This document shows, piece after piece, positions 15,001-18,000 of a stretch of 18,580 bases of DNA (position 1 is the stretch's first letter; every line of letters begins with the position of its first letter). Made by a program: the position numbers. The stretch lies in the IMG/VR virus record IMGVR_UViG_2537562015_000012; one strand, written 5' to 3'. Source of the DNA: a virus (taxonomy: Duplodnaviria > Heunggongvirae > Uroviricota > Caudoviricetes).

Positions 15001-18000
15001 CACCTTTCAGTGTCCGAAGGGTAAAAAACATCAATTACATAAGCAACACCAATTGGTATTAATGCTAGTAATAACATCGACACAGGACGTACAAACTTCT
15101 GAACTATATCAATTTTATAGAACCACAAGGCGGTATGTTTAATGATATAAGTAAAGATGGCTGCGCCAATAATGGCAAAAAACACCATCGATAAAGTCGG
15201 GTATAACTTTGCGACAATTAAACCCAACAAAATAATTATAACTGCCTGCCCCCTCACACCAACCCTCCCTTTAGCTTTGTTTAGAATGGCAATCATCATA
15301 TATCCAAGACATGGCATTTGGTACATAGCTTGGGTCGGGATTTCAAATCCGCTCCCCGTTGATGGGGCCGTTACAGTACGCGCATATCCGCTTTATGTGA
15401 AACAGGAAGATTTTTCTGATATCACTGCCACAGCAAAACACCAATTTCGTGACCAGTACGCGCGCGAGGTGTATCAGTTGCAAAATTTTTTGCAGCTGTG
15501 TCCGACCAGTACGCACGCGATGGCGGGGAGCACCATAAAACTGTTCTCTACATAAGACAGAGTGGTGGTGATGTGTTGATTATCGGCGTATATGCGCACA
15601 GGACGCGCTATGACGATGTTTTATGCGGGTACACCAATCACATGTATCTGGTGTGATAAATCGCGTTACATGACCTCTCATGTTGTGCTGGTGGTTATCA
15701 CGACGTTCTGAATCTGGCCTTTGCCTGATATTTTGCGACAAGTACGCGCGCGTAGCATCGACAGCATACACATTGGATATTCATTTTGTGACCAATGCGA
15801 TAAGTAGCGGGATAAGAATTGATAAAATCAACAGGACGATGATCCACTTCTGATTCTCGTCCATCTTATCTGCTAGGCGACGCTCCATTCCGTGCATATC
15901 ACCGCGAATGGCAATCATCTCATTGCGAACATCCGAGAAGTGGTTGGCTTGATGTTCAATGTGTGGCGTTCTGCCTTTCATTCCTGATCCTCACCTATCG
16001 TCACCACCTGCTGGTGTATAAAGGTATTGGCCCAAGCAGCTTTCTAATGGGCACTCATGTTTATACGCTGACCTTACAATCAATCACCGCTTTTAACTTT
16101 TCAGCATTGCTTCCCTGACGCTTCCACGCGCTGTAAATATCTTTATCCCACGCTTTACCAGCTTTTGTTTGATAGCCTGCTTCATTGATCCGTTCAGCTA
16201 TCACACGCCCATTATCAAATCCCTGTCGGATGGTATCGGCAATGATCTTTATAACTGCCGTTTCGTTATATGGCTTTGGTGGGATGTTCGGCTTTCCGGC
16301 AATAAGCGACGCAGCGGCTTTTTCCATGCGCTCCACCAGCCCAAGCATTCGTGAATCAATAGACTTTTCCGGCTGTCCCAGCTTCATGCGAATCGCATCA
16401 ACAAGCCAGGAGGTTTTATCCCCTCCAGAAGCGAGAACAGACCGATTAAACTCATCCTGCAATTCAGATGGGATGCGGAACGCGACCAGATTAGATTTGC
16501 TCATTGCAAAGACCATATCAGTGAGTAATATCCATACAGTATACCACTGTATAACACTGTTATACGCTCAAATATCAACCAGAAAATAACGGACCAATCA
16601 CAAAGCTATCGCTGTGTTGTTGGTTCAGAGCTGGACTGTGTTGGTTCAAAATGAGTTGATGTTGGTTCAATATTTCTGAAAAAACACAATAAAAACAACG
16701 ATCTTTACAAATTGAACCAACTGAACCAACACCTTTTTGCTTATCTATATAATCTGAGAGGCAGAAATGATAAGGGACAGGAAAGCTGAAGAGCTGGAGT
16801 CAAAAGGGCTATACCGGAGAGCTGCCGCACGATGGGCAGAAGTCATGATGCTGGCAGATGGCGATAAAGAACGTGAACATGCAGCAAACAGACGCTCTGA
16901 ATGTATCCGTAAGGCGGCACGCCAACCAGCAACTACAGACAGATTCGGAGATTTAAGACAGGCAGTTAAGCGGACTCATTCGGCTCTTGGTATGGATGAG
17001 GAAGCGAGAGGGTACTTCAGGCGTTATCGCGATAAAGATTGCCAGAGACAGTAATGCTCTCTCTGTTTTGGCAAATTACCCCTCACTTTGAAGGGATCGG
17101 AGCTATAAAAATGGTGTTATCCGGCTTCCTCAAATTTAGGTTTTCGAAAGAATCAATGGGTTAGGTCATCGTGCAAATTTGCACTCTGCCAGCCAACGCA
17201 ATTTCTCGTTGGCGGAAATATCAGGTATTTACTGAACGAACGGTCTACCAGTCTGTTCAGTTACCAGTTGCACATGGCTGTTTCATGTGAGAACGGAGGT
17301 TTTTTCGGACATCGCTATTGGGTACAGCAATTTCACGAGCAATACGCGCGCGCAGGACAACAAGCCTGAACATGGTTACACACCTCGAGCCTGAGGGATG
17401 TAGGCAATGGCTTCTGACCAAAGCACCCGAAAAAACCGTGTACATAAGGGTGTACATAATCAAAAATCGCATTAGAAAGAAACCAGCCACAATGCGGCAT
17501 TGAAGCCAACACTCTACAAACAGATTCAAGAGTAACTCGTAACACTAATTCTTACTTTTCAGCCTTCACAAATGCCGCCCACTCAAACAGAGCGGCATTT
17601 TTCTTCCCCGCAACTTCAATTCTGTTTTGCGTGCCTGCTCCAGATTTTGCGATGTTTTTTTGCCCAGCACACTGAGAACGTGAGATACTCACAACTGTAT
17701 ATAAATACAGTTACAGATTTACTTTCTTTGCAATCGATATCACATGGAGTGGGCAATGAACGAACATCATCAACCTTTTGAAGAAATACGGCATTATGGC
17801 ACTGAAGGGCAAGAATTTTGGTCAGCTAGAGAATTGGCACCGTTACTGGATTATCGGGACTGGCGCAATTTTCAAAAGGTACTGGCCCGCGCGACTCAAG
17901 CGTGCGAAGCCAGCAATCAAGCTGCATCTGACCATTTCGTTGAAACCACCAAAATGGTTGTATTAGGTTCAGGGGCTCAACGAGAACTTGAAGATGTTCA

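What the first reader, a model, noticed from the sequence alone, without database searches (positions are those of the whole stretch)
17055..17755. Probable island/chromosome junction upstream of SOS-regulated dinD
Seen: a 700-bp noncoding stretch with a perfect 14-bp palindrome GTGCAAATTTGCAC (17171-17184), a 7-bp-stem hairpin GCCAACG...CGTTGGC (17192-17213), tandem GTGTACATAA repeats (17438-17459), a strong terminator (17572-17605) and a canonical LexA box (17693-17712) 44 bp before the dinD start. Inference: the right boundary (attR) of the integrase-bounded element lies somewhere in 17055-17650. It cannot be pinned down because the left att site is upstream of position 1.
Basis: partly seen in the sequence, partly recalled or inferred. 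Interest (0 to 1): 0.35.

Follow-up and report, generated by a model that had tools for sequence, protein, structure and literature searches.

The report
Satellite island's right end beside dinD
This stretch holds the right-hand attachment site (attR) of a roughly 17.7-kb phage-satellite island inserted into the last codons of the E. coli gene yicC, just upstream of dinD. That is ordinary, except that the few bases at the crossover point carry small deletions in about two thirds of the genomes that have the island.

Summary
Comparison with public E. coli genomes places the junction at window 17521-17535.

- **Empty site:** island-free genomes run directly from yicC to dinD and align with the window only from 17530 or 17533 onward.
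- **The element:** it looks like a Gram-negative PICI (a phage-inducible chromosomal island). It carries a P4-type tyrosine integrase, AlpA, a primase, PerC and an IS1 insertion.
- **How it integrates:** it inserts into the 3' end of yicC and supplies replacement codons and a terminator at its integrase end.
- **Layout of the finding:**
  - 17055-17327 is the island's non-coding tail, including a 60-bp fragment of a phage roi gene.
  - 17328-17520 is the P arm. The two GTGTACATAA repeats there are probable integrase arm sites, and four more copies lie upstream of int.
  - 17521-17528 (CAGATTCA) is the core.
  - 17529-17535 is a stump of the old yicC end.
  - Beyond that lie the native yicC terminator and the LexA-controlled dinD promoter.
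- **Chance features:** the palindrome and the 7-bp hairpin occur at chance frequency.
- **Direct confirmation:** a circularly permuted copy in strain NRZ14408 carries exactly the predicted attP.
- **Unexpected:** attR cores carry nested 1-12-bp net deletions in about 68% of occupied sites (6 bp here), while the flanks have almost no indels.

The parts
1..1269 (+). Tyrosine integrase (422 aa) at the left end of the island.
   Evidence: Pfam finds Arm-DNA-bind_3, Phage_int_M and Phage_integrase domains. The protein is WP_001355495.1, the same protein as in strain NRZ14408, where a circular-form record exists.
2388..2606 (+). AlpA-family helix-turn-helix protein, the candidate excision and directionality factor.
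   Evidence: Pfam Phage_AlpA scores 26.4 bits against a cut-off of 21. The role in excision is inferred from what the literature says about AlpA relatives (PMC10111431).
14079..14846 (+). IS1 insertion inside the island. It is absent from the otherwise identical island of strain E8.
   Evidence: The window is collinear with E8 apart from 777 extra bases. The IS1 inverted repeat starts at 14079.
16767..17054 (+). perC-family gene, the last gene of the island.
   Evidence: Pfam PerC, E = 1.3e-32.
17055..17327 (.). Island non-coding tail downstream of perC. It contains the palindrome (17171-17184), the hairpin (17192-17213) and a roi/KilAC gene fragment (17106-17165).
   Evidence: The segment 17055-17289 is shared at about 94% identity with a related island at another chromosomal site, next to yagU. 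A 52-60-bp piece is 92-96% identical to the interior of lambdoid roi/KilAC genes. One relative has a 765-bp ORF in this position instead. The palindrome and hairpin are at chance level. Rfam finds nothing.
17328..17520 (+). P arm of the attachment site, a module linked to the integrase. The minimal part shared by all island types at this site is about 17424-17520.
   Evidence: Other island variants at yicC share only 17328-17528 or 17424/17430 onward. There are no indel columns in the 90 nt left of the core across 26 loci.
17438..17459 (+). Two direct GTGTACATAA repeats with a 12-nt period, probably arm-type integrase binding sites.
   Evidence: These are the only copies with 0 or 1 mismatches in the window. 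Four more copies (0, 0, 1 and 2 mismatches; two direct, two inverted) lie 28-79 bp upstream of the int start codon. In O157 strain H6437, whose integrase is 86% identical and most diverged in its arm-binding N-terminus, the repeats are changed to GTGTACACAA and GTGTACCCAA in the same layout.
17521..17528 (+). attR core CAGATTCA. This is the only block identical between the two ends of the island in this strain.
   Evidence: The crossover maps to positions 7-11 of the 21-bp block CAGATTCAGAATATCGAATAA, using the attL/attR/attP trio from NRZ14408 and host polymorphisms.
17529..17535 (+). Stump (AGAGTAA) of the original yicC 3' end, 6 bp shorter than the native GAATAT[C/T]GAGTAA.
   Evidence: Compared with empty sites and with full-length attR alleles.
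17536..17755 (+). Native yicC-dinD intergenic region. It holds the yicC intrinsic terminator (17570-17605) and the dinD promoter region with its LexA box (17693-17712).
   Evidence: The region is essentially identical in island-free genomes.
17756..18580 (+). dinD (DNA damage-inducible protein D).
   Evidence: RefSeq annotation of the identical sequence in strain E8.

Best explanation
The finding covers attR, the right attachment site of a roughly 17.7-kb mobile island of the Gram-negative PICI (phage-satellite) type, together with the untouched chromosomal yicC-dinD intergenic region.

**How the island integrates.** It encodes a P4-type tyrosine integrase. Integration occurs by site-specific recombination between its attP and the last codons of yicC. 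The identity block is CAGATTCAGAATATCGAATAA, which encodes Q-I-Q-N-I-E-stop. The integrase-proximal end of the island brings replacement codons and its own terminator, so yicC stays intact at attL. The displaced original yicC end, the yicC terminator and the LexA-regulated dinD promoter remain to the right of attR.

**The arm sites.** The GTGTACATAA repeats at 17438-17459, together with four more copies upstream of int, are probably arm-type sites. They would be bound by the N-terminal arm-binding domain of the integrase to build the recombination complex.

**Where strands are exchanged.** The crossover lies within positions 7-11 of the block (CAGAA). This fits a 7-bp overlap, TTCAGAA, centred on the small palindrome ATTCAGAAT.

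**State of this copy.** In the window the host-side part of the core has lost 6 bp (CAGATTCA|AGAGTAA). Only 8 bp of identity with attL remain. I infer that excision of this copy is impaired.

**The deletions as a family trait.** Such nested microdeletions are common in this island family. The most likely cause is integrase activity at attR, that is, abortive or aberrant strand cleavage and rejoining.

**Shown versus inferred.**
- Shown: the junction position, the empty sites, the attP sequence, the crossover interval and the focal deletions.
- Inferred: integrase binding to the repeats, the exact overlap, the cause of the deletions and the loss of excision.
For: - **Empty versus occupied sites.** Island-free genomes join yicC to dinD and match the window only from 17530 or 17533. 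4182 genomes have the uninterrupted site. About 250 genomes carry this type of attR.
- **Source strain.** The window is identical to ETEC strains E1648, E1654 and E1739. Their upstream sequence shows intact yicC, then the identity block, a terminator, four GTGTACATAA-like repeats and int.
- **Direct attP.** Record NZ_LT599831.1 ('phage_14408_2', 19,226 bp) is one circularly permuted island unit with a perC-attP-int junction. Its attP equals the attP I predicted by joining the window's P arm to attL at the core. Its integrase protein is identical to the window's.
- **Crossover interval.**
  - In NRZ14408, attL has C6 and C15, attR has T6 and T15, and attP has T6 and C15.
  - attR keeps host-background polymorphisms at positions 12, 15 and 18. 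attL always carries the island's version.
- **Integrase type.** It has Arm-DNA-bind_3 plus the catalytic domain. The arm repeats differ where the integrase N-terminus has diverged.
- **Focal deletions.**
  - Across 26 sequenced attR loci there are 15 alleles of 10-21 nt. There are 0 gap columns in 90 nt of P arm and 2 in 60 nt of right flank.
  - Islands at least 99.6% identical carry five different alleles.
  - 36 of 53 evenly sampled genomes are 1-12 bp shorter.
  - 0 of 11 metagenome hits are full length.
  - The same 2-bp deletion occurs in three host backgrounds. The window's 6-bp form also occurs in three host backgrounds.
  - No empty site carries the 2-bp scar.
Against: - Integrase binding to the GTGTACATAA repeats, the cleavage positions and the excision competence of the window's copy are untested.
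- The NRZ14408 record could come from a tandem duplication rather than a free circle, although its length is exactly one unit.
- Full-length attR alleles exist in hosts whose sequence differs from the island's at positions 12 and 15. A simple model in which mismatches in the overlap cause the deletions therefore does not fit well.
- One empty site (APEC17) carries a 9-bp deletion in yicC. Either a deleted attR can still recombine, or such deletions can arise without the island.
- The genome sample is not corrected for clonal relatedness. Net length differences were verified base by base only for the loci I read.
- The island does not fit the published PICI criteria perfectly. It is larger and carries P22-type ejection-protein genes.
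Confidence: 0.9

Rival explanations
1. The microdeletions are an integrase-independent hotspot. The stump of the old yicC end is functionless DNA containing quasi-palindromes (ATTCAGAAT; ATTCA..TGAAT) and short repeats, which favour replication slippage. The same events would occur in yicC itself but be removed there by selection on the YicC C-terminus.
For: The deletions are confined to the 14 nt that lost their coding role. attL and the empty sites, which encode the YicC C-terminus, are stable. Several deletions are flanked by 1-2-nt microhomology (sequences). One empty site carries an in-frame 9-bp deletion.
Against: The rate needed is very high. Five alleles occur among islands at least 99.6% identical, and the same alleles recur in three host backgrounds. 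In-frame deletions appear tolerated (APEC17), yet the one in-frame deletion allele searched for turned up at only 1 of 678 dinD-less empty sites. The only other scar allele tested, the 2-bp deletion, was absent from 4182 yicC-dinD empty sites. The left ends of the deletions fall within a 3-4-nt window that coincides with the mapped crossover interval.
Confidence: 0.25
2. There are no deletions. Instead, closely related integrases use slightly shifted crossover points in yicC ('attB drift'). Each island variant would then have its own shorter attP, and each attR would be a conservative product.
For: [quoted passage not shown] Some alleles can formally be written as conservative products of a shortened attP.
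Against: attL is identical in all E8-type islands read, and so is the one attP observed, regardless of the attR allele. Position 18 and the flanking polymorphisms of attR follow the host background, so the variable segment is host-derived. For the window allele the alternative identity block would be only 2-3 bp (GA or TAA), too short for a tyrosine-recombinase overlap. The lengths of attL plus attR fall short of attB plus attP.
Confidence: 0.1
3. The deletions are selected. Loss of the host-side core half locks a useful island, with its defence and regulatory cargo, into the chromosome. It would also prevent costly excision and replication when a helper phage infects. The deletions may arise by any mechanism.
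For: Deleted alleles form the majority (36 of 53; 11 of 11 metagenome hits). The islands carry Abi-type and other cargo in variable slots. The one strain with a circular-form record has a full-length attR.
Against: Selection alone does not explain why lesions are always small and abut the crossover, rather than hitting int, alpA or the arm sites. The integrase is intact here and identical to that of the excising relative. The association with excision rests on a single strain.
Confidence: 0.2
4. The palindrome at 17171-17184 and the hairpin at 17192-17213 are functional island elements, such as an operator, a packaging site or a perC terminator.
For: They lie in a module conserved downstream of perC in related islands at two different chromosomal sites. 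The pair folds somewhat better than shuffled sequence (z = -3.2).
Against: Their frequency equals chance expectation in this window. The palindrome is broken in NRZ14408, the one relative for which a circular-form record exists. No U-run follows the hairpin. There is no Rfam match and no lambda-type cosN. The relatives are too similar (about 95%) for conservation to be informative. One relative replaces the whole module with an ORF.
Confidence: 0.1

Closest known systems
Gram-negative phage-inducible chromosomal islands (GN-PICIs, e.g. [quoted passage not shown]
   Same: int at the left end, alpA, a primase replication module, mostly one-directional genes and a Bro/antirepressor zone (AntA). 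A perC allele is present, as reported for some E. coli PICIs (PMC6092414). A 'late zone' holds captured phage genes (PMC10111431). Integration is into the 3' end of a protein-coding gene, with a replacement sequence supplied by the island.
   Different: It is 17.7 kb (16.9 kb without IS1) against the typical 12-15 kb. It carries P22-type ejection-protein genes (Inj_translocase plus a 698-aa partner), which sits badly with the criterion 'no structural genes'. The helper phage, induction and packaging are unknown. I could not confirm that this exact element is one of the published reference PICIs.
Satellite phage P4 and the P4-type integrase/attP
   Same: The integrase has the P4-type architecture (Arm-DNA-bind_3, central and catalytic domains). 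The primase is alpha-like (zinc ribbon, Toprim, DUF5906). There is a P4-style immunity region with an Ash ORF and a C4/CI-type antisense RNA. The attP has repeats on both arms and an identity block of about 20 bp that restores the 3' end of the target gene. That last point about P4 at leuX is from my own knowledge, not tested here.
   Different: The target is a protein-coding gene (yicC), not a tRNA gene. No Psu, Sid or Delta-type hits were found in the ORFs scanned. The gene order is PICI-like.
Vibrio mobilizable genomic islands MGIVflInd1, MGIVchUSA1, MGIVchMoz6 and MGIVmi1
   Same: Tyrosine-recombinase islands integrated into the 3' end of yicC (table in PMC5704250).
   Different: They are mobilized by SXT/R391 conjugative elements rather than being phage satellites. 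They occur in a different genus. Relatedness of the integrases was not tested.
Phage lambda attP/attR architecture (arm-type sites, core-type sites, 7-bp overlap)
   Same: Arm repeats lie 62-83 bp to one side and 122-173 bp to the other side of a short core. The crossover is confined to a few base pairs. attL and attR are hybrid sites.
   Different: The sequences and the integrase subfamily differ. No IHF consensus site was found. The frequent microdeletions at the attR core are not a described feature of lambda, as far as I know.
The E. coli dinD SOS box and promoter
   Same: AACTGTATATAAATACAGTT matches the LexA consensus and is the native dinD operator. It is present unchanged in island-free genomes.
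   Different: Nothing differs. It is chromosomal and unrelated to the island.

Membership tests
Attachment site (attR) of an element integrated by a tyrosine integrase | Related genomes have an uninterrupted target site (attB) exactly where the element ends. | tested here: met
   The junction of yicC and dinD is uninterrupted in at least 4182 genomes. Alignment with the window starts at 17530 or 17533.
Attachment site (attR) of an element integrated by a tyrosine integrase | A short sequence is repeated directly at both ends (the identity block), with the integrase gene next to one end. | tested here: met
   CAGATTCA lies at 17521-17528 and again 208 bp upstream of int in the source strain. 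Relatives have a full 21-bp block.
Attachment site (attR) of an element integrated by a tyrosine integrase | A joined attP can be observed, equal to the left part of attR plus the right part of attL. | tested here: met
   The circularly permuted record NZ_LT599831.1 of a relative with an identical integrase protein carries the predicted attP. This was not shown for the window's own strain.
Attachment site (attR) of an element integrated by a tyrosine integrase | Arm-type sites are bound by the integrase N-terminal domain. | not testable with these tools
   Sequence evidence only. Six GTGTACATAA-like copies lie on both arms. An arm-binding domain is present. The repeats differ in the island whose integrase is 86% identical.
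Gram-negative PICI (criteria of PMC6092414) | Conserved organisation with an integrase, a master regulator (alpA) and a replication module. | tested here: met
   int at 1-1269, alpA at 2388-2606 and a primase at 6392-8743, all on the + strand.
Gram-negative PICI (criteria of PMC6092414) | [quoted passage not shown] | tested here: inconclusive
   No capsid, tail, terminase or lysis domains were found in the ORFs scanned. However, P22-type ejection-protein genes are present at 10647-14083. Captured late genes are accepted in later descriptions (PMC10111431).
Gram-negative PICI (criteria of PMC6092414) | Size typically 12-15 kb. | tested here: not met
   The element measures 17.7 kb from core to core, or 16.9 kb without IS1. 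This is within the 10-20 kb range quoted in PMC10111431.
Gram-negative PICI (criteria of PMC6092414) | A unique att site never occupied by prophages. | tested here: inconclusive
   All occupants seen at yicC were satellite-like islands of at least two types. The site was not surveyed exhaustively.
Gram-negative PICI (criteria of PMC6092414) | Induction, replication and packaging by a helper phage. | not testable with these tools
   The only hint is the separately assembled circular-form record.
P4-like satellite | Capsid-size and helper-control genes (sid, psu, delta) and a cos site. | tested here: not met
   No such Pfam hits were found in 20 ORFs. There is no lambda-type cosN. A P2/P4 cos site was not searched for specifically.
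LexA (SOS) operator | CTGT-N8-ACAG with an AT-rich spacer in the promoter region of a known SOS gene. | tested here: met
   The site is at 17695-17710, 46 nt upstream of the dinD start. 0.24 such sites are expected per window. It is conserved in island-free genomes. LexA binding itself is known from the literature on dinD (my own knowledge).
Intrinsic terminator | A GC-rich stem-loop followed by a U-run downstream of a gene. | tested here: met
   17570-17605 folds at -12.4 kcal/mol with z = -4.3. In empty sites it lies 35 nt after the yicC stop codon.

The most novel reading that the evidence does not exclude
The host-side half of the attR core of yicC-integrated satellites is a deletion hotspot that depends on the recombinase. 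Repeated abortive cleavage or strand exchange by the island's own integrase would nibble 1-12 bp, starting exactly at the crossover point. This would leave a readable footprint of the cleavage site and progressively lock the satellite into the chromosome. If it is general, it would be an unrecognised route by which mobile islands become fixed. It would also explain the apparent 'attB drift' reported by island-mapping software.
Probability: 0.35. Interest if true: 0.55.

Novelty: already known. Interest (0 to 1): 0.33.

Why it matters
The junction itself is routine annotation. It fixes the island's boundaries (208 bp upstream of window position 1 to 17528). It shows that yicC, its terminator and the SOS-controlled dinD promoter are intact. 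It also assigns the GTGTACATAA repeats to the integration machinery.

The by-product is more interesting. A satellite family whose attR core has been hit again and again by tiny deletions gives a natural experiment on how mobile islands lose mobility. It also gives a sequence-level readout of where the integrase cuts. For genome annotation, it warns that direct-repeat searches will find only 8 bp, or shifted 'identity blocks', at such islands.

Tried and rejected
- **Small RNAs.** Rfam found nothing in 17000-17800, either at gathering thresholds or at E <= 1.
- **Promoters and terminators.** The scan found no sigma-70 promoter-like site. It found one weak minus-strand terminator-like hairpin at 17486-17498, which does not fold better than shuffled sequence.
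- **Packaging site.** There is no lambda-type cosN (GGGCGGCGACCT) near the island end. Only two 2-mismatch hits occur elsewhere, at chance level.
- **IHF sites.** No match to WATCAANNNNTTR, even with one mismatch, in the reconstructed 400-bp attP.
- **Hidden gene in the non-coding stretch.** The minus-strand ORFs (17257-17529 and 17333-17545) and the 'hypothetical protein' annotated across attR in some relatives share only the P-arm part. The latter is Cys-rich and looks spurious.
- **Phage homology of 17055-17535.** Only the 60-bp roi/KilAC fragment matches.
- **My first reading of the core.** I took it to be a 6-bp GA(R)TAA block. I dropped this once full-length alleles, host polymorphisms and the observed attP showed the crossover lies further left.
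- **My initial assumption about the source.** I assumed the window was strain E8. It is the E1648 type, with an extra IS1.
- **Literature.** Searches for yicC together with integrase or PICI gave only one preprint sentence and the Vibrio MGI table.
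Full report

- The palindrome GTGCAAATTTGCAC is at 17171-17184.
- The 7-bp-stem hairpin is at 17192-17213.
- Two GTGTACATAA copies are at 17438-17447 and 17450-17459.
- A terminator hairpin lies at 17570-17600, followed by a U-run.
- A LexA box has its core at 17695-17710.

The annotated dinD start is 17756. RefSeq annotates no gene between perC (ends 17054) and dinD in the identical sequence of strain E8.

The motifs do not carry equal weight. Perfect 14-bp palindromes (2 seen, 1.17 expected) and 7-bp-stem hairpins (16 seen, 8.9 +/- 3.8 expected) occur at chance frequency in this window. 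The terminator folds far better than shuffled sequence (-12.4 kcal/mol, z = -4.3). CTGT-N8-ACAG is expected only 0.24 times per window. The two exact GTGTACATAA copies are the only copies with 0 or 1 mismatches in 18.6 kb.

**Where the window comes from.**

- Positions 16600-18580 are identical to ETEC strain E8.
- The whole right part, including an IS1 element at 14079-14846, is identical to strains E1648, E1654 and E1739.
- The sequence upstream of window position 1 in E1648 continues exactly into the window and is identical to E8 there.

**The junction.**

- In island-free E. coli, yicC is followed directly by dinD. Such genomes align with the window only from 17530 or 17533 onward.
- At least 4182 of 5426 complete genomes have the uninterrupted yicC-dinD site.
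- Another 678 genomes belong to a lineage lacking dinD, where yicC abuts yicG.
- About 250 genomes carry an attR of the type seen here.

In the source strain the island lies between an intact yicC and dinD. The sequences are:

- attB: GAG CAGATTCAGAA[T/C]AT[C/T]GA[G/A]TAA, followed by CTCGTAAC.
- attL: the same block in the fixed form CAGATTCAGAATATCGAATAA, followed by island DNA (GCTATCAG...).
- attR in the window: ACAAA CAGATTCA AGAGTAA CTCGTAAC.

The core is therefore at 17521-17528, and 17529-17535 is a shortened remnant of the old yicC end. The chromosome continues from 17536. The island measures about 17.7 kb from core to core.

**How integration works here.** The integrase-proximal end of the island supplies the last four codons of yicC (N-I-E-stop, with a synonymous change) and a new terminator (AAAGCCCG...CGGGCTTTTTT, -11.8 kcal/mol). 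yicC therefore remains full length. The original terminator (17570-17605) and the dinD promoter with its LexA box stay in place to the right of the island. They are unchanged relative to empty sites.

**attP observed directly.** Record NZ_LT599831.1 ('phage_14408_2', strain NRZ14408, 19,226 bp) is exactly one island unit. It is circularly permuted and has perC joined to int through an attP region. Its integrase protein (WP_001355495.1) is the same as the window's. Its attP is ...CTCTACAAA CAGATTCAGAATATCGAATAA GCTATCA... This equals the attP I had predicted by joining the window's P arm to attL at the core. A later complete assembly of the same strain shows the integrated copy.

**Crossover position.**

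- In NRZ14408, attL has C at position 6 and C at position 15 of the block. attR has T at 6 and T at 15. attP has T at 6 and C at 15. The exchange therefore lies between positions 6 and 15.
- In strain A30, attR carries C12 and T15, exactly as in an empty O157 site. attL carries the island's T12 and C15. That places the exchange left of position 12.
- Position 18 and the flanking polymorphisms of attR always follow the host background. attL is constant.
- Together these give an interval of positions 7-11 (CAGAA).
- A 7-bp overlap TTCAGAA centred on the small palindrome ATTCAGAAT would fit, but this is inference.
- C6 occurs on the host side in one strain and on the island side in others. That is what a heteroduplex overlap containing position 6 would produce.

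**The GTGTACATAA repeats.**

- Two direct copies lie 62-83 bp left of the core.
- Four more copies (0, 0, 1 and 2 mismatches; two direct with the same 12-nt period, two inverted) lie 122-173 bp right of the core in attP. That is 28-79 bp upstream of the int start.
- The integrase has the Arm-DNA-bind_3 domain.
- A different island at the same site in O157:H7 strain H6437 has an integrase 86% identical, with most differences in the first 60 residues. Its repeats, in the same layout, read GTGTACACAA/ATGTACACAA and GTGTACCCAA.

I therefore read them as arm-type integrase binding sites. Binding itself is untested.

**The rest of the 'non-coding' stretch.**

- 17055-17289 is a module found downstream of perC in related islands, including one at a different chromosomal site next to yagU.
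- 17106-17165 is a fragment 92-96% identical to the interior of lambdoid roi/KilAC antirepressor genes.
- One relative has a 765-bp ORF in this position, so this is a variable cargo slot.
- 17328-17520 is linked to the integrase. The part shared by every island type at this site starts at about 17424-17430.
- The palindrome is broken in NRZ14408, where it reads GTGCAAATTTGTAC.
- No RNA family, cos site, IHF consensus or credible ORF was found.

**What the island is.**

- It encodes int, AlpA, AntA, an Ash ORF overlapping isrK and C4-type RNAs, a primase (zinc ribbon, Toprim, DUF5906), P22-type ejection-protein genes and PerC. Nearly all lie on one strand.
- This matches the Gram-negative PICI layout described in PMC6092414 and PMC10111431.
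- The exceptions are its size and the ejection-protein genes.
- No sid, psu or delta-type hits were found, so it is not a classical P4-like satellite.
- Vibrio MGIs also use the 3' end of yicC.

The kind of element and the target site are therefore known.

**Unexpected: focal microdeletions at attR.** Across 26 attR loci that I read base by base, the 21-nt block has 15 alleles of 10-21 nt. The 90 nt of P arm have no indel column and the 60 nt of right flank have two.

The alleles include:

- Full length: CAGATTCAGAA[T/C]ATTGAATAA.
- 2 bp shorter: CAGATTCAATATTGAGTAA, and the same deletion in two other host backgrounds.
- 4 bp shorter.
- 6 bp shorter: CAGATTCAAGAGTAA in the window. The same form occurs in a second dinD-containing background and in the dinD-less background.
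- 7 bp and 9 bp shorter.
- 11 bp shorter: CAGATTCAGA or CAGATTCAAA, joined directly to CTCG.

Further observations:

- Islands at least 99.6% identical to the window's carry five different alleles.
- In an even sample of 53 island-bearing complete genomes, 17 are full length and 36 (68%) are 1-12 bp shorter.
- None of 11 metagenome hits is full length.
- The left ends of the deletions fall after positions 7, 8 or 10, inside the mapped crossover interval.
- In the loci I read, none extends left into CAGATTC or right beyond the old stop codon.
- No empty site carries the 2-bp scar.
- One genome of 5426 (APEC17) has an empty site with the 9-bp deletion in yicC. It matches the attR allele of another avian strain, MS1657.

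**Interpretation of the deletions.** The local indel rate is far above that of the flanks, and the events recur independently. I consider integrase-linked damage at the strand-exchange point the most likely cause, at roughly 0.35-0.4. Slippage in a functionless quasi-palindromic stump, selection for immobilised islands, and 'attB drift' are the rivals. The last fits the data least, because attL and the one observed attP are invariant and the variable segment follows the host background.

For the window's copy, only 8 bp of identity remain between attL and attR. If the overlap is TTCAGAA, two of its seven positions now differ. By the general rule for tyrosine recombinases, that should impair excision. 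This is inference only.

**Verdict.** The finding is a correctly recognised island-chromosome junction, now located to the base. The kind of element and the target site are already known. Its interest is modest. The recurrent microdeletions at the attR core are the one feature that deserves follow-up.

Noticed in passing
window 17521-17535, compared with L001, L003, L006-L008, L011-L014, L016-L032, L034, L035 and L038: The attR core of this island family is hypervariable. There are 15 alleles of 10-21 nt in 26 loci, all due to nested deletions starting at the crossover point. The flanks have almost no indels. About 68% of occupied sites are shortened.
   Followed up: yes
L033 (NZ_LT599831.1, whole record); L038 (same strain, integrated copy): A 19,226-bp record named 'phage_14408_2' is one circularly permuted unit of a sister island with an identical integrase. 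It gives a real attP junction. This suggests excision or replication in culture, or possibly a tandem copy.
   Followed up: partly
L036 (APEC17) 2529-2545; L034 (MS1657) 2600-2615: APEC17 is the only one of 5426 genomes with an empty site whose yicC lacks 9 bp (855 nt instead of 864). The lesion matches the 9-bp-deleted attR of MS1657. It may be an excision scar.
   Followed up: partly
window 14079-14846: An IS1 insertion (768 bp plus a target duplication) cuts off the last few codons of the 705-aa 'injection protein' gene (698 aa here). It is absent from strain E8.
   Followed up: partly
window 4433-4510 and 4573-4660 (+): Rfam matches isrK (60.5 bits) and the C4 antisense RNA (79.9 bits) inside the annotated 'ash family' ORF (4052-5119). 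This looks like a P1/P4-style RNA immunity region in the island.
   Followed up: no
window 10647-14083: The island carries homologues of P22-type DNA ejection proteins (Pfam Inj_translocase, E = 2.5e-73, plus a 698-aa partner). Relatives also have a DUF2824 gene upstream. This is unusual cargo for a satellite and hints at a P22-like helper.
   Followed up: no
window 16618-16731: Five copies of GTTGGTTCA lie 35-150 nt upstream of perC: three direct with a 21-nt period (16618, 16639, 16660) and two inverted (16711-16731). This looks like an operator or iteron cluster.
   Followed up: no
window 10449-10464: A second CTGT-N8-ACAG match (CTGTTGTTTTATACAG) lies inside the 100-aa ORF 10352-10654, just upstream of the ejection-protein genes. 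It could be chance (0.24 expected per window) or a LexA site within the island.
   Followed up: no
window 17106-17165: A 52-60-bp fragment is 92-96% identical to the interior of lambdoid roi/KilAC antirepressor genes. It sits in the non-coding tail as a recombination scar.
   Followed up: partly
L006 (O157:H7 H6437) 4363-20110: Some O157:H7 strains carry a different satellite-like island at the same yicC site, with three PerC-family ORFs, a ProQ/FinO gene, SSB, IS2 and a Q antiterminator. Its integrase is 86% identical and its arm repeats are altered. Its attL changes the YicC C-terminus from NIE to NVE.
   Followed up: partly
L034, L035, L036, L037 (dinD-less lineage): About 678 complete genomes lack dinD altogether and have yicC followed by yicG. 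The island integrates there too.
   Followed up: partly
hits H5, H26, H28: In some genomes an ISL3-family ISKox3 element sits between yicC and dinD, so this intergenic region also receives IS insertions.
   Followed up: no
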